Origin: Escherichia coli
GTDB lineage: Bacteria; Pseudomonadota; Gammaproteobacteria; Enterobacterales; Enterobacteriaceae
Length of the DNA: 64,000 nucleotides
Assembly (NCBI RefSeq): GCF_030013595.1
Contig: NZ_CP122768.1
Reading direction: 5' to 3' (one strand)
Shown: piece after piece, positions 42,001 to 48,000 of the stretch
Layout: every line of letters begins with the position of its first letter
How positions within the stretch are numbered: position 1 is the first letter of the stretch
Program-made: the position numbers

Positions 42001-45000
42001 AGCGTTTGTGGTTCTTGATAGTGTTTTCCGGCTTAATTTGCAGAGTGGTTTTATCCTGAACCGAAAGCGCCTGTTGCTGGAACAGGAAACCGTGATCCGC
42101 CGTAACAAAAATGCGTGTGCCGTGGAGACGGTTGATTACTTTGGTGACTAAATCTTTCAGCTCAGTCACCGCCGTGCGGCACGCTTCGAAGGTTTTATCT
42201 TCCGTGGATGCCGTGTCGCCAGTGGCATCAATCGTGTTATGCCAGATATACACCACTTCGTAATCGCGAATAAGGTCTCGTCCTTCCTGATTTTTTAACT
42301 CCAGAAGGTCCTTCGATTTTATCGCCATTCCTTTATAGTTCTTCAGAATGGTATCGCGGTTAGGAATACCCGAGGTCGACAGCCCATCAGCATAAACAAT
42401 GTCACCGTTACCCGGTTGATAACAAAGTTGTTCATGAGGCAGCAACGCCGCCATTCCCAGTTGGGTGTAGCTGGGGAGCACGCCGAGCTGCGATCGCAGT
42501 TCTGCGGTAAAGCGTTTCTCGGTATTGATTTGATTCCTCAGCTCCTCCGCTACTTCATAACGCAGGGCATCGGAAATTATCACGAACACGCGTTTGATTT
42601 GCGGATTTTGGAACTGCGGCTTCACCACCTCATTGAAGAAGTTTTGCTGACGCGGCACACCGGGGATTTGCCACGCCTGCATACGATTTTCCGCTTCCAG
42701 CACTTCGTTCCAGTTACGGCTTAATTCTGCCAGATACCAGTTGCTGTAGAGCGCCTCGATATAATCATCCAGGCTCTTGAGGATCATCGCCCCTTTGCTG
42801 TGAACCAGCAGGGCATATTCATTAAACAGGCGATAAGCCTGGTCGAAGCGGAACAGTTCTTCGCAGTAGGCTTTCCAGAAGGTGGCGCTGTCCTGGTAGT
42901 GGAAACCATCGATGTGGCGATTGCGCAGATTCAGCAACCGCTCAGCTTGGCGCAGTGCGTCATAGATGGCGTAATACTCTGGTTGTGTCTGGCACCAGTA
43001 TTTGCTCTGGCGTTCAGAGAGCAGTTTTTTAAAGGCTTCCCGATCGAGCGTGGTGCTCTCTTCCAGCAGCTGCGTTACCAGCGCATGAATAATGGTTTGT
43101 TCGATGCTGAGGGTGGTTTCGCATTCGTGCAAATCATACGGCGAGCTAAGCCGGTAATGATCTTCCGGGCGCAGGGCCGCCTGCATTTGCTGAGCGCAGT
43201 AGTCATAAGCCTCTTTATAGCGACGATCGGCACGCCAGGTCACCATAAATGCCAGGGCGGATGCTCTGCCGGATGGCGTCAGCAGGACATTTTTTTCCAG
43301 CCAGGCGCGCTGTTGTGGGTCGGCCTGGGCAGAGAGATCGGTACAAAACAGTTTCAGGAGCAGGTTTTCCAGCGATGGCTCCTCTGCCTGGTAGCCCATT
43401 TCGTGGTTGAGCATTTCCCACAATACCGAGTCCAGACCGTGGCGTTTCAGCATCGCCTGCGTGTTTTCCAGTTCGCTGTCGTCTTCTGCTTGTTGGTTAA
43501 CGTACTGGGTAATCAGATTGAACAAAATGTCTTCGGTTTTCGCGGTCTTTGCGCCAGCGATCACTGCAATCATTTTCTTATCCAGCGAGGCTTCATCTTC
43601 CTGTTCTGTCACCAGATTTTTCAGCGCCTGCGTGCGTTTAGTGCTGAAGAAGGCCTTGCGTCGTTGAATATGCTCGCGCAGGCCAAGCTGTGGAATGCCC
43701 AGCGTGTTCAGGGTGATGGCGGCAAAATCGGCATGGAATTCGCTGCTGTAAAGGCGGATATCCAGCAGCCAGTCTTGTTCATGAGGCGGCGCATCATGGG
43801 GGAACCACAGCAGGAACTGCTGTTCTGGCTCATCAATCTCGATGCGTTTTTTCACCGCCAGCTGTGACGCGTGGGTCATGTTGATCAGCGTAACGTTTTC
43901 AAGCTCAAGCTGTTCCTGTTCCTCAATAAAACGCTTATCGGGATCGTGCCAGAAAACGATGCGATGTTCGGCAAATTTAGCTTTAAGGCCAGCAATAAAG
44001 TCCTGATTTTGCAAGTTCACAATCCCATGTTGTTACGATGAATAAGAAAGCGCCAAAACGCGAAAAGGAGATTTTGACACGGTGGCGCATTTTATCATGA
44101 AGTGAGGTGGAGAAATGCCAGTAGCGGCGCGTTTCCCGGTGGTATTTGCCACCGGGCAGAACCCGGCAGTAGGGGAACGCGCCGTCTGGTTTAGATCACC
44201 TCTGGGGCATTGCCGGTGATGGCTTTGACATCTGCCAGCAGATCGCCAAACTTGCCGTAGTTAACCTTAACGCCATCGTCGAGATCAATACTGATTCTCA
44301 TATCAGCATAGTGACGCAGGCGGTCGTCATAACTACGCAGTTCGCTGAATTTTTTGATCAGGCTGTCGCGTTCGCGTTTCAGACGTGTGGCTTCGCCGCC
44401 AGAAGCCTCATCAAGTTGATCGTTCAGGCGATCGATATTGGCCTGATAACGCGCCAGCAGCGGTACAACATATTCGGTACGCATTCTCGACAGCGTAGCG
44501 TCGTTATAGCGATGCAGATACACCAGGCACTCAAAGGCTTTCTCTTTGCCGGAGCTGAATAGCCAGTAGATTGGCCGCTTTTTATACATCTTCATATGAT
44601 CTTTCCAGAACTGGGTGGAAAGATAGCGGCGAATGGTCTCCAGCGCAGATTCGCCTTTTTTCGGCTTGATCGCGTATAAACAGAGACTTTCGGCGATAAA
44701 TTCGAGGTTTTCCTGCAGGTGCTCTTCACCCCAGACAGTGCGGACAAACTCTTTGACGCGAGAGGTGACGTCGTCCTCAAACCACTCGTCATCCATCAGC
44801 GGCAGGATACCGTCACTGTCGGCTGGGAAGGTTTTGTAGGCACCTTCGGCGACGAGATCGGCGAAGCCTTTGTTGCCTTCATGGGCGTAGACAAGGCCTT
44901 CGCGATCGAGGGAGTAACGGCCCATTTGGCAGCCGATGATGTAGGAAGTTAACTCAGAAAATATGTCACTACATTGACGGTGGTTTATTTCATCAAGATT

Positions 45001-48000
45001 ATTCTTATTTGGATATTTAAAGGTTGAATTCGAATCTAAAGCTATCTTTGAAATAGAAACATTCGGCTCTATCAAACCTAAAAGATTATATGTTTCTAAC
45101 AATTTTTGATTGTTTTTCGTTTCGAGTAATTGTGTTCTCACAACTCTATTCTGCCATGATTCTTTCATTTGATTGTAAGAATTTGATATTTTTTCATTTT
45201 TAAAATCTAATAAAGGATGATTTTTGAAAGACCACGAACTTTCATGTTCATCCCAATCTGATTTTGAAAGTTCTATGAGTTCGCGAACTTGAGATACAAT
45301 TTCCTGCTTATATTTTTCTATGACAGGCACTTTACCCACAGGGCCTTCATGGAAGTCTAGTGTCGGGGATAAAGCTTCAAGTATTTTTTCCGCTATTGGG
45401 CTATTCATTAATGCCAGCGCATAAAAAAGAGAATCTTGATTGTCACTAAAGCAAACAGAGCCTTTTGTTTCGAAAAGAAAACCCTCAGGGCTGTAGCGCA
45501 TGGATAAATATGATGATGAAATTGTAGACCAAGTAATTCCTTCCTTAAAATAATATCTTTCATTACGGATTACTGAGCCTTCGTAAGATTTCATTTCTGC
45601 ACCATTTTTATCCCAGTTCACAACCAAATCATTGTTTCCAAACCATTTTCTGTACGCCCCTCCTTTGTTGCAGGGAAACCATTTAGAAGCATTTTTGTCA
45701 TCCATGTATGAATTAAATTGGCTAAATTTTGTTAGGGAAATTTCACTCCATCTTCTCAAAAATAAATCATTATTACCTGTGGCAAATCCTTGTCTTGGTA
45801 CAGAGTAAACTTGAACTGGTGTACCCAATGTAAAGCAAGACAGTATTTTAGGGTTTACCCAATATGCAATAGGATAACCGGGTATTTTTTTGAAATCACT
45901 TGCAGTAGCATTTTTTAAACGCTCATTTTTTACAGGGAACTCTTCTGGGTATCCTTTTTCATTGATATCGTCATTTTCCGCATAGGAGAAGGAGCCCTTA
46001 TAAGATGGAGTATTCGTATTTCTAAATACAGTAGCATTTGTACCAAAAGCAATTTTCATAACTCCATTGCCCATATGCACCATAGTTTCGATTGTATAAT
46101 TAGTGAGGATATTTTTACGCATGTTTTCAAAACTGGAAAGGAACATCCAGGATTGCATTGTTACCATTGAGTTGAAACCAGCATTTTTCAACCAAAGGAA
46201 ACCACGCTCAATAAACATAGCAAACAAATCAGACTTACTATCTGGGAAATTATTTTTGGCAAACTCTTTCAGCTCACCATTCATTCCCTTACTGCCCATA
46301 TACGGCGGATTCGCCACCACTGCATCATATCGCTGCGCTAAAATCCACGCCTGCTGAATAAACGGAATAAACGCTTTCGCCGCCGCTTTCTGTTGGAAAT
46401 CGCCCTCCTGTTCCAGGCGATACAGCGCGTCCAGAAATACCTTCAGTTCCGCTTCTTCTTCCTGCGGTATCTGAATCAGTGAGCCCAGCGTTTTTGCATT
46501 CACAAAGCGTTTCAACGTGCGCATCAGCAGCTGATATTCTGCGCTGTCAGTTTGGGTTAACGCGGTATTTTCAGCAAACATATCCCCCATGCTGCCGGTT
46601 TGTACCTGCTGGTGGAAATTGAGCTGCTGCCAGAGTTTGGCGATATCCAGATGCAAACTTTCCTGCAAAGAAACAATATTCAGACGCACATCGGCTTTGT
46701 TGAATAAATCAGATTTTGGGTAAGTCTCCCCCGTAGCGGGTTGTGTTTTCAGGCAATACGCACGCTTTCAGGCATACCTGCTTTCGTCATTTTGTTCAGC
46801 GCTCGTACCAGGGCCATAGCCTCCGCAACCTGACCATCGTAGTCACGCAGCGTCAGTGAACCCCCGAACAGCTGTTTTACCCGGTACATCGCCGTTTCCG
46901 CTATCGAGCGACGGTTGTAATCTGTTGTCCATTTCCACCGCGCATTACTCCCGGTCATTCGCTGATTAGCCACTGCACGGTTACGGTCTGCATATTCACC
47001 GGGCCAGTAACCCGCACCTTTTCGGGGAGGGATAAGCGCGCTGATTTTCTTACGCCGCAGTTCATCGTGACATAGCCGGGTATCGTAAGCGCCATCGGCG
47101 GCGGCTGACCTGATTTTCCGGTGGGTTTGCCGGATTAACCCGGGGAAGGCCTCTGAGTCCGTAACGTTGTTCAGCGACAGGTCAGCGCAGATGATTTCAT
47201 GTGTTTTACTGTCAACGGCGAGATGCAGCTTACGCCAGATACGGCGGCGTTCCTGGCCATGCTTTTTGACTTTCCACTCGCCTTCACCGAAGACCTTCAG
47301 CCCGGTGGAATCAATTACCAGGTGTGCGATTTCACCCCGGGTGGGCGTTTTGAAACTGACATTAACCGACTTTGCCCGCCTGCTGACACAGCTGTAATCC
47401 GGGCAGCGTAGCGGAACGTTCATCAGAGAAAAAATGGAATCAATAAAGCCCTGCGCAGCCCGCAGGGTCAGCCGGAATACGCGTTTAATCACCAGAACGG
47501 TGGTGATGGCGAGATCAGAATAGCGCTGGGGCCTTCCTCGTGATGAAGGCGTTGCCGACTCATACCAGGCCTGAATCGCTTCATCATCCAGCCAGAAAGT
47601 GAGGGAGCCACGGTTGATGAGAGCTTTGTTGTAGGTGGACCAGTTGGTGATTCTGAACTTTTGCTTTGCCACGGAATGGTCTGTGTTGTCGGGAGGATGC
47701 GTGATCTGATCCTTCAACTCAGCAAAAGTTCGATTTATTCAACAAAGCCCCCCCAAACTGTCAGTCCATGCATCTTTCGTCCCTGGTGTGTTACATGAAC
47801 ACACGTCACTTTTATCTCCTGGCAGAATAAACAAATTTTACAGGTTTTTTCTTCCCCGGGATTCAGCCTCACTCCCTGCTTGCTCAGCAACCATCTGCTG
47901 TTGTTGCCGGGTATGACTGTCTGCATGGCATGCATTTGTTGTATCTGTGCTGACTGAATACGATAAAAATTTCTGGTTAATGACGATCGATATCATCTAT

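What the first reader, a model, noticed from the sequence alone, without database searches (positions are those of the whole stretch)
44945..46300. Compositional mosaic inside pglX: low-GC central block flanked by high-GC ends
The roughly 1.35-kb stretch encoding about residues 130-580 of the PglX fragment is visibly AT-rich, while both ends of the gene, pglZ and brxL are GC-richer. The boundary falls just after the NPPY motif. This pattern is what segmental exchange of a specificity domain between BREX variants would leave behind.
Basis: inference. Interest (0 to 1): 0.4.

Follow-up and report, generated by a model that had tools for sequence, protein, structure and literature searches.

The report
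AT-rich specificity cassette inside truncated pglX
The AT-rich stretch is real and is the hypervariable, DNA-sequence-reading part of the BREX methyltransferase PglX, which E. coli strains swap as modules; every allele examined has the same dip, as does the classic hsdS specificity gene, and the copy here is an IS-truncated dead remnant, so it is a clean but largely ordinary example.

Summary
Observation confirmed. Window 44945-46300 has GC 0.345 against 0.52 on both sides. Maximum-likelihood change points fall at 44935 and 46269. GC3 is 0.30 in the block and 0.60 in the flanks (p = 1e-18).

The block starts at the NPPY codons (46311-46300). It covers three parts of PglX: the methyltransferase lobe after NPPY, the target recognition domain (TRD), and the helical spacer.

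Interpretation partly supported. Allele comparisons show segmental exchange at exactly these borders.
- In most E. coli chromosomal alleles the flanks are 92-100% identical and the block is unalignable (about 45%).
- The full block recurs in 1 of 5426 genomes.
- The block has two independently assorting modules. The crossover lies at 45897|45889, the methyltransferase|TRD boundary (0 of 1000 permutations reach the observed statistic).

However, the low GC is not a scar of an import into this genome.
- All 20 other Escherichia alleles compared, and PglX genes from Acinetobacter, Klebsiella, Deinococcus, Mesorhizobium and Haematobacter, carry the same dip.
- EcoKI hsdS TRDs in K-12 carry it too.

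The window copy is dead. An IS903B-like element cuts it at codon 382, and brxABC are absent.

The allele is a rare member of a known kind. Interest is modest.

The parts
44191..46692 (-). 3' fragment of BREX-1 pglX (codons 382-1214 of the intact allele). It is a pseudogene remnant that lacks the N-terminal domain and SAM-binding motif I.
   Evidence: NF033452 BREX_1_MTaseX scores 918 bits against a cut-off of 500, matching profile positions 404-1210. tblastn with the intact CDE2901 PglX aligns residues 382-1214 at 99% identity. The junction maps to codon 382.
46300..46311 (-). Codons for methyltransferase motif IV (NPPY). They mark the 5' edge of the low-GC block.
   Evidence: HS residues 508-511 map to window 46311-46302. 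The NPPY sequence is visible in the alignment.
45889..46299 (-). Module A: the methyltransferase lobe after NPPY (fragment residues 131-267). It contains the loop equivalent to HS BrxX 587-601, which reads the last base of the motif. The window carries class A1, which has a short loop.
   Evidence: Domain limits are from PMC11842806, mapped. Nucleotide identity in module A (alignment columns 520-640) to NWU_3 and MFDS is 87-89%, and near 100% over the first ~290 nt including the NPPY region. Identity to PI12 is 37% and to HS 56%. Amino-acid identity to Acinetobacter indicus is 65%, against 26% and 55% in the flanks.
45313..45888 (-). Target recognition domain (fragment residues 268-459). This is the first part of module B.
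   Evidence: HS residues 651-837 map here. It is 99% identical to CDE2901 and PI12 only, and 24-47% amino-acid identical to the other 18 alleles.
44948..45312 (-). Helical spacer after the TRD (fragment residues about 460-580). This is the second part of module B and holds the GC minimum (0.28).
   Evidence: HS residues 838-950 map here. Spacer helices are described for Salmonella PglX residues 850-960 in PMC11341690. Amino-acid identity to other alleles is 19-34%.
44191..44947 (-). Conserved C-terminal region of PglX, with host-like GC. It is the 3' homology arm for exchange.
   Evidence: It is present at 80% coverage or more in 339 E. coli genomes, at 95-99% identity in 228 records and 90-95% in 85. 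Identity resumes at essentially the same position (44947-44903) in all 12 chromosomal alleles that carry a different module B.
45889..45897 (-). Recombination breakpoint between modules A and B, at the methyltransferase|TRD boundary (HS residue about 650).
   Evidence: A maximum chi-square test on the triplet window/NWU_3/PI12 used 719 informative sites and gave chi2 = 660, reached by 0 of 1000 permutations. Below 45897 all 495 informative sites side with PI12. The BLAST alignment to PI12 ends at 45896.
46693..47749 (-). IS903B-like insertion sequence that truncates pglX.
   Evidence: It is 1057 bp long with terminal inverted repeats GGCTTTGTTGAATAAATC. The transposase matches DDE_Tnp_1_5 and DDE_Tnp_1. 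It is 95% identical to IS903B on pEFER, and the flanking 9-mers differ, so there is no target-site duplication.
41417..44020 (-). pglZ (BREX-1 phosphatase type A), open and host-like in GC.
   Evidence: TIGR02687 scores 1260 bits. GC is 0.513.
39322..41406 (-). brxL (Lon-related BREX protein), open and host-like in GC.
   Evidence: TIGR02653 scores 1343 bits. GC is 0.502.

Best explanation
The low-GC block is the specificity-determining middle of the BREX type 1 methyltransferase PglX (BrxX).

**What the block encodes.** It encodes three consecutive parts:
- the methyltransferase lobe after motif IV (NPPY), which holds the loop that reads the last base of the 6-bp BREX site;
- the target recognition domain, which reads bases 1-4;
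- the helical spacer.

**How it evolves.** In Escherichia this middle is hypervariable and sits between nearly invariant, host-like ends. The ends act as homology arms, so whole modules are replaced by homologous recombination. At least two modules assort independently: module A is the post-NPPY lobe and module B is the TRD plus spacer. Crossovers fall near NPPY, at the methyltransferase|TRD hinge, and at the spacer/C-terminal junction.

**Origin of the window allele.** It combines an A1-class module A, shared with strains NWU_3, MFDS and CDE2901, with a rare module B shared only with CDE2901 and PI12. Relative to PI12 it differs by one recent replacement that ends at 45897|45889.

**Why it is AT-rich.** The AT-richness is a property of these modules in general, not of this event. 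The same is true of Type I hsdS TRDs. My inference is that module composition is decoupled from the host, for one or both of two reasons. The modules may circulate horizontally faster than they take on host composition. Alternatively, being too divergent to recombine and evolving fast, they may drift toward the AT-biased mutational equilibrium.

**State of the copy here.** It is non-functional. An IS903B-like element removed codons 1-381, including the SAM-binding motif I, and brxA, brxB and brxC are missing.
For: **Composition.** See for the GC and GC3 contrast and the change points.

**Identity and domain map.**
- The fragment matches the NCBIfam PglX model and the solved structures 8C45, 8ZEK and 9EWZ.
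- Domain limits come from PMC11842806 and PMC11341690 and were mapped onto the window.

**Variability.**
- The 3' flank is present in 339 genomes, at 95-99% identity in 228 records.
- The full block is present in 1 of 5426 genomes.
- Sliding nucleotide identity is 92-100% in the flanks and 30-55% in the block for most chromosomal alleles.

**Independent assortment.**
- Window and PI12 share module B (99%) but not module A (37%).
- NWU_3 and B1 have identical flanks and module B (99%) but different module A (59%).
- pX14-3 and 98205 have identical module A (100%) but different module B (45%).

**Breakpoint.** The maximum chi-square breakpoint is at 45897|45889, with chi2 = 660 and 0 of 1000 permutations reaching it.

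**Module A classes cross backbones and phyla.**
- PI12 and pEFER are 69% identical in module A, against 52% in the N flank.
- The window is 65% amino-acid identical to Acinetobacter in module A, against 26% in the N flank.

**The GC3 dip is universal.**
- It appears in all 19 other E. coli alleles compared.
- It appears in Acinetobacter (0.45 to 0.25), a Klebsiella plasmid (0.45 to 0.30), Deinococcus (0.86 to 0.49), Mesorhizobium (0.76 to 0.56) and Haematobacter (0.79 to 0.57).
- It is absent in low-GC L. plantarum (0.31 against 0.32).
- EcoKI hsdS TRDs have GC3 of 0.12-0.25, against 0.58-0.73 in the conserved end of hsdS and 0.64-0.66 in hsdM and hsdR.

**Truncation.**
Against: - No methylome or motif data link modules A and B of this allele to particular bases. 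The assignment of bases 1-4 to the TRD and base 6 to the lobe is transferred from the E. coli HS structure (PMC11842806).
- The cause of the AT-richness is inferred, not shown. I found no near-identical module B outside E. coli: the best plasmid hits are below 50% amino-acid identity and the best database hits are 56% or less. Recent cross-genus cassette transfer is therefore not demonstrated for this module.
- The panel of 27 alleles was picked to be diverse, so it cannot give exchange rates.
Confidence: 0.85

Rival explanations
1. A single recent import of a foreign, low-GC segment (44945-46300) into this genome's pglX created the contrast. This is the literal reading of the first-stage note.
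For: - The block's borders are sharp and the block is rare: the full block is in 1 of 5426 genomes.
- Part of it (module A plus upstream sequence) does differ from the otherwise 99.7-100% identical PI12 locus, so one recent replacement did occur.
Against: - Every allele, whatever its module, has the same dip at the same columns, as do PglX genes in other phyla.
- The block is two modules with different histories.
- Module B and the 3' flank, pglZ and brxL are jointly 99.7-100% identical to PI12. Module B therefore did not arrive separately from its GC-rich neighbours in the recent past.
Confidence: 0.05
2. The low GC is imposed by the protein. A DNA-reading domain needs Lys-, Asn-, Ile- and Tyr-rich sequence, which is encoded by AT-rich codons.
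For: GC1 drops from 0.62 to 0.39 in the block, so amino-acid composition does differ.
Against: - GC2 is unchanged (0.35 against 0.35), while the mostly synonymous third position halves from 0.60 to 0.30.
- In high-GC hosts the same domains are encoded with GC3 of 0.49-0.57, and in L. plantarum there is no contrast.
- Composition therefore follows a DNA-level force rather than a fixed protein requirement.
Confidence: 0.07
3. The AT-richness reflects decay after the gene was inactivated by the IS, that is, relaxed selection in a pseudogene.
For: The gene is truncated and its partners brxABC are gone.
Against: - The 832-codon frame is still open.
- The intact CDE2901 allele is 96-100% identical along the fragment and has the same dip.
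- The decay would have to spare the 3' 750 bp and the 5' 390 bp of the same pseudogene.
Confidence: 0.01
4. The variable middle is switched within a genome by programmed inversion between a full pglX and a partial silent copy, as in Lacticaseibacillus rhamnosus.
For: PglX is strongly enriched among targets of programmed inversions, which swap a middle part while keeping both termini (PMC9881135).
Against: The window holds only one pglX-like stretch, with no inverted partial copy and no repeats of the fragment. No such partial copy or adjacent recombinase appears in the intact E. coli loci inspected.
Confidence: 0.02

Closest known systems
PglX/BrxX of BREX type 1 (E. coli HS BrxX, PDB 9EWZ and 8ZEK; Salmonella PglX, PDB 8C45)
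   Same: - Same protein family and same domain order. Full-length alignment to the solved chains has E = 0.
- NPPY motif IV is present.
[quoted passage not shown]
   Different: - The window copy is only codons 382-1214 and cannot be active.
- Its module A has a loop four residues shorter than the HS and Salmonella class, and its module B is 24-39% amino-acid identical to HS. The recognised motif is therefore unknown and probably different.
- The four papers read do not mention the GC dip, the natural two-module assortment, or the fixed 3' junction.
Type I restriction-modification specificity subunit HsdS (EcoKI family): TRDs between conserved regions, reassorted by recombination
   Same: - Hypervariable DNA-reading modules flanked by conserved segments.
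- Independent assortment of modules.
- The same composition pattern was measured here: EcoKI hsdS TRDs have GC3 of 0.12-0.25, against 0.58-0.73 in its conserved end and 0.64-0.66 in hsdM and hsdR.
- The PglX spacer helices structurally mimic HsdS spacers (PMC11341690).
   Different: - In PglX the modules are part of the methyltransferase polypeptide.
- One exchanged module is a lobe of the catalytic domain itself, not a second TRD.
- The recognised site is a short asymmetric 6-mer, not a bipartite site.
Type IIL/IIG enzymes of the MmeI family
   Same: The methyltransferase domain and TRD of BrxX are homologous to those of MmeI and DrdV, and the mode of DNA binding is similar (PMC11842806). The fragment matches Pfam Eco57I, and the intact CDE2901 PglX also matches MmeI_Mtase.
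   Different: PglX has no nuclease domain. It carries BREX-specific N- and C-terminal domains, and these are the conserved homology arms here.
Programmed-inversion (shufflon-like) switching of the PglX middle region in Lacticaseibacillus rhamnosus and Brevibacterium casei
   Same: Same logic: the middle of PglX varies while the N- and C-termini stay constant (PMC9881135).
   Different: Here the variation is between strains and arises by homologous replacement. There is no silent partial copy or recombinase in the locus.

Membership tests
BREX type 1 PglX (BrxX) methyltransferase | Sequence match to the curated family model above its cut-off | tested here: met
   NF033452 scores 918 bits against a cut-off of 500, covering profile positions 404-1210 only.
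BREX type 1 PglX (BrxX) methyltransferase | Catalytic motif IV (NPPY) | tested here: met
   NPPY is at fragment residues 127-130, window 46311-46300.
BREX type 1 PglX (BrxX) methyltransferase | SAM-binding motif I (GxG, residues about 315-317) and the N-terminal domain | tested here: not met
   The gene starts at codon 382 because of the IS903B-like insertion. The window copy is a gene fragment, not a functional member.
BREX type 1 system (operon context) | pglZ and brxL downstream of pglX | tested here: met
   TIGR02687 (PglZ type A) and TIGR02653 (BrxL) both match above cut-off.
BREX type 1 system (operon context) | brxA, brxB and brxC upstream of pglX | tested here: not met
   No match in the window to the brxA, brxB or brxC part of the intact locus L001. 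The system here is a remnant.
Specificity-module exchange of the HsdS/TRD type | A hypervariable segment bounded by conserved segments shared by many alleles | tested here: met
   Flanks are 92-100% identical and the block 30-55%. The 3' flank is in 339 genomes and the full block in 1.
Specificity-module exchange of the HsdS/TRD type | The same module found with different partner modules or backbones (independent assortment) | tested here: met
   Shown by the pairs window/PI12, NWU_3/B1, pX14-3/98205 and PI12/pEFER.
Specificity-module exchange of the HsdS/TRD type | Module replacement changes the recognised DNA motif | not testable with these tools
   This needs methylome (SMRT or ONT) data for strains carrying each module combination.
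Specificity-module exchange of the HsdS/TRD type | AT-rich composition of the variable modules relative to the conserved parts | tested here: met
   EcoKI hsdS was measured for comparison.
Programmed-inversion PglX switching | A second, inverted partial pglX copy with shared repeats, plus an adjacent recombinase | tested here: not met
   The window contains a single pglX-like stretch and no repeats of it.

The most novel reading that the evidence does not exclude
PglX specificity may be built combinatorially from two kinds of cassette drawn from a pool shared across bacteria and compositionally decoupled from the hosts.

- One kind is a post-NPPY methyltransferase lobe that comes in at least four ancient classes. 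All four are found both on one nearly identical E. coli backbone and in distant phyla.
- The other kind is a TRD-plus-spacer cassette.
- The lobe class would set the 3' end of the 6-bp site and the TRD cassette the first four bases.

If so, natural chimeras with crossovers at NPPY, at the hinge (HS residue about 650) and at the spacer/C-terminal junction (HS residue about 950) would give design rules for re-targeting BREX. They would also allow BREX motifs to be predicted from sequence. Swapping only the loop failed in published attempts (PMC11842806).
Probability: 0.3. Interest if true: 0.5.

Novelty: new member of a known kind. Interest (0 to 1): 0.3.

Why it matters
For this window it matters little. 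The gene is an IS-truncated remnant of a BREX system that has lost brxABC, so it confers no defence.

More generally, three points could be of use to people who engineer or annotate BREX.
- The comparison gives natural crossover points for swapping PglX specificity: near NPPY, at the methyltransferase|TRD hinge, and at the spacer/C-terminal junction.
- A catalytic-domain lobe is exchanged independently of the TRD.
- The AT-rich dip is a cheap, alignment-free marker of the specificity region of PglX. It also appears in hsdS.

The dip is a caution too. A GC dip inside a defence gene should not by itself be read as a recent import.

Tried and rejected
- **Protein search with module B.** Searching the 5.8-billion-protein collection returned only short fragments at 56% identity or less. 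It did not even return the near-identical CDE2901 protein, so it said nothing about how widely the cassette is spread.
- **Plasmid tblastn with the whole block.** No close relative turned up; all hits were below 50% identity. The search was useful only as a source of distant PglX genes for the composition test.
- **Promoter and terminator scan of the block.** It found 5 promoter-like sites against 5.3 expected from shuffles. There is no sign that the AT-rich block creates internal signals.
- **Motif prediction from pEFER.** I tried to predict the recognised motif by matching module A to pEFER, which recognises GCTAAT. pEFER turned out to carry class A3, like PI12, not the window's class A1. 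No characterised system shares the window's modules, so I predict no motif.
- **Scan of the genome or metagenome collections for module B.** I did not run it. Only three E. coli genomes carry this cassette and each species has a single representative, so the expected yield was too low to justify the cost.
- **Structure prediction.** Unnecessary, because three solved homologues align along their full length.
- **Literature on a GC dip or natural mosaicism in pglX.** The four BREX papers read in full-text search do not mention either.

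
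Full report
**1. What is at the coordinates**

The window has E. coli-like composition (GC 0.506). On the minus strand it carries three BREX type 1 genes.
- brxL lies at 39322-41406.
- pglZ lies at 41417-44020.
- An 832-codon open frame at 44191-46689 is the 3' two-thirds of pglX. Its NCBIfam match is NF033452 at 918 bits, covering profile positions 404-1210.

The homology to pglX runs up to 46692, where a 1057-bp IS903B-like element begins (46693-47749).
- Its terminal inverted repeats read GGCTTTGTTGAATAAATC.
- It is 95% identical to the IS903B copy on pEFER.
- The flanking 9-mers differ, so there is no target-site duplication.

The cut falls at codon 382 of the 1214-codon intact allele. brxA, brxB, brxC and the 5' part of pglX are nowhere in the window. 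The locus is therefore a dead BREX remnant. It lies in an island next to tRNA-Phe (52285-52360) and a P4-type integrase.

**2.

- GC over 44945-46300 is 0.345. Only 0.3% of windows of that length in the 64 kb are as low.
- A two-change-point likelihood fit places the block at 44935-46269. GC is 0.342 inside and 0.523 and 0.529 outside.
- In frame, GC3 is 0.297 in the block (134/451) and 0.601 in the rest of the fragment (229/381), with p = 1e-18.
- pglZ and brxL have GC3 of 0.615 and 0.576.

**3. What the block encodes**

The intact allele aligns end to end with the solved structures of Salmonella PglX (8C45) and E. coli HS BrxX (8ZEK, 9EWZ). I took the published domain limits for HS BrxX from PMC11842806 and for the Salmonella spacer helices from PMC11341690.

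| Published domain | Residues |
|---|---|
| HS methyltransferase domain | 211-650 |
| HS NPPY motif | 508-511 |
| HS loop reading the sixth base | 587-601 |
| HS TRD | 651-837 |
| Salmonella spacer helices | 850-960 |

Mapped onto the window, the block covers three consecutive parts.

| Part | Window coordinates |
|---|---|
| Post-NPPY lobe of the methyltransferase domain | 46299-45889 |
| TRD | 45888-45313 |
| Helical spacer | 45312-44948 |

Host-like composition returns exactly where the conserved C-terminal region begins. The block is therefore the specificity-determining middle of the protein, and it is larger than the TRD alone.

**4. Evidence for segmental exchange**

The 754-bp 3' flank is present in 339 of 5426 complete E. 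coli genomes, at 95-99% identity in 228 records and 90-95% in 85. The full block is present in one, strain CDE2901-yvys, at 98.5%.

I fetched 19 E. coli alleles and E. fergusonii pEFER and aligned them by codon.
- In the chromosomal lineage the flanks are 92-100% identical to the window.
- The block is 30-55% identical, which is effectively unalignable.
- The 3' edge is the same (44947-44903) in all 12 chromosomal alleles that carry a different module B.
- The 5' edge is graded, between 46326 and 46050.

The block splits in two.
- Strain PI12 has one mismatch to the window over pglX from 45896 to the stop codon. The surrounding 7.4 kb through pglZ and brxL (38516-45896) is 99.7% identical. PI12 is unrelated (37%) in 45897-46288.
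- NWU_3 and MFDS show the reverse pattern.
- A maximum chi-square test on the triplet puts the crossover at 45897|45889. It used 719 informative sites and gave chi2 = 660, and 0 of 1000 permutations reached that value.
- That position is HS residue about 650, the methyltransferase|TRD boundary.

Other allele pairs confirm independent assortment.
- NWU_3 and B1 have the same flanks and module B but a different module A.
- pX14-3 and 98205 have the same module A but a different module B.

**5. Module A classes are old and mobile**

The post-NPPY lobe falls into at least four classes.

| Class | Members seen |
|---|---|
| A1 | window, CDE2901, MFDS, NWU_3, pX14-3, 98205, pYLMB52a; A1-like loop in Acinetobacter indicus and L. 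plantarum |
| A2 | HS, Salmonella 8C45, most other E. coli alleles, a Klebsiella plasmid |
| A3 | PI12, pEFER; closely similar loop in Deinococcus |
| A4 | HCP17S3; similar loop in Mesorhizobium and Haematobacter |

The classes cross the three Escherichia backbone lineages and recur in other phyla.

The window's module A is 65% amino-acid identical to Acinetobacter, against 45% to E. coli HS. Its flanks are 71-98% identical to HS and 26-55% to Acinetobacter. Flanks and block therefore have different histories.

HS (GGTAAG) and Salmonella (GATCAG) both carry class A2 and both end in G. pEFER (GCTAAT) carries class A3. This fits the published role of the loop in reading base 6, but it is only an association. 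No characterised system carries class A1, so I do not predict a motif for the window allele.

**6. The low GC is not specific to this allele or genome**

All 19 E. coli alleles show the same GC3 dip at alignment columns about 510-970. The dip also appears in PglX from other genera.

| Host | GC3 outside the block | GC3 inside the block |
|---|---|---|
| Acinetobacter | 0.45 | 0.25 |
| Klebsiella plasmid | 0.45 | 0.30 |
| Deinococcus | 0.86 | 0.49 |
| Mesorhizobium | 0.76 | 0.56 |
| Haematobacter | 0.79 | 0.57 |
| L. plantarum | 0.31 | 0.32 |

In the three high-GC hosts the dip covers the lobe and the TRD but not the spacer. In the intact CDE2901 allele GC2 is unchanged and GC1 and GC3 fall, so the force acts on DNA composition rather than through a fixed amino-acid requirement.

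The classic analogue behaves the same way. In K-12, the EcoKI hsdS TRDs have GC3 of 0.12-0.25. The conserved C-terminal region of hsdS has 0.58-0.73, and hsdM and hsdR have 0.66 and 0.64.

The contrast therefore marks the specificity region in general. It is not a dated import event. Why such modules are AT-rich remains an inference. Either they circulate faster than they take on host composition, or they drift to the AT-biased mutational equilibrium because they are too divergent to recombine.

**7. Comparison with the literature**

- TRD variability among BrxX homologues, and re-targeting by TRD mutations, are published (PMC11842806, PMC11341690).
- Programmed inversions that swap a middle part of PglX while keeping both termini are known in Lactobacillales and Actinobacteria (PMC9881135).
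- The window has no second pglX copy.
- The four BREX papers I searched do not mention the GC dip, natural two-module assortment, or a fixed 3' junction.
- These are extensions of a known principle, not a new kind of system.

**8. Verdict**

However, the composition is a family-wide property, the block is larger than the TRD, and it consists of two modules.

The allele is a rare member of a known kind, and here it is dead. I score interest at 0.3. The residual value lies in the natural crossover map and the lobe classes, which could guide BREX re-targeting once methylomes confirm the module-to-base assignment.

Noticed in passing
window 46693-47749: An IS903B-like element (1057 bp) truncates pglX at codon 382. 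The 9-mers on either side differ (ACGCACATC and CCCCCAAAC), so there is no target-site duplication. This implies an IS-mediated deletion or rearrangement that removed the 5' part of pglX and brxABC.
   Followed up: partly
window 50674-52408; L002 17002-18737: The island is bounded by tRNA-Phe (52285-52360) and a P4-type integrase (50822-52087). A speC-like ornithine decarboxylase lies beyond, which indicates the pheV site. Strain PI12 has a BREX remnant 99.7% identical over brxL, pglZ and pglX down to window coordinate 45896, at the other tRNA-Phe locus (the cadC/dsbD side, pheU). The same island therefore occupies both phe-tRNA sites in different strains.
   Followed up: partly
L002 9192-12677; L008 1818-6048: pglX is independently cut by IS1 in PI12, at a different codon from the window's cut. 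pglX and brxC are IS1-disrupted in ET734. Inactivation of this BREX lineage by insertion sequences is recurrent.
   Followed up: no
L018 (E. coli HS pglX), alignment columns 300-500: The reference HS allele is itself a backbone chimera. Its N-terminal part is 72% identical to the main chromosomal lineage and 84-88% identical to the pX14-3/98205 lineage. Its C-terminal region is 95% identical to the main lineage. It also lacks the small second GC3 dip (0.38-0.42 at columns 301-360) seen in most chromosomal alleles.
   Followed up: partly
window ~30950-32650 and ~35000-35950: Two other stretches of the window are as AT-rich as the pglX block or nearly so (GC 0.34-0.39 and 0.38-0.40). ORFs at 33833-34405 and 35080-35871 have no NCBIfam match.
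   Followed up: no
window 48101-48841 and 49001-50500: Between the IS and the integrase lie two ORFs. One is an outer-membrane beta-barrel or adhesin-like ORF with weak, sub-threshold matches to Adr and OmpW. The other is a 499-aa phosphoethanolamine-transferase-like ORF, with matches far below the family cut-offs. The first overlaps, and the second abuts, local GC dips (about 48750-49200 and 50400-50900).
   Followed up: no
L027 (E. coli K-12 4576000-4588000): EcoKI hsdS shows the same composition pattern as pglX. TRD GC3 is 0.12-0.25, against 0.58-0.73 in the conserved end of hsdS. hsdM and hsdR are at 0.64-0.66, and mcrBC are also low (0.36-0.40).
   Followed up: yes
(protein database search with window 44947-45897): The search returned only short fragments at 56% identity or less, some named as Type II methylase subunit YeeA or as archaeal restriction endonuclease. 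It missed the near-identical full-length CDE2901 PglX. The reason is unknown and is probably candidate selection in the tool.
   Followed up: no
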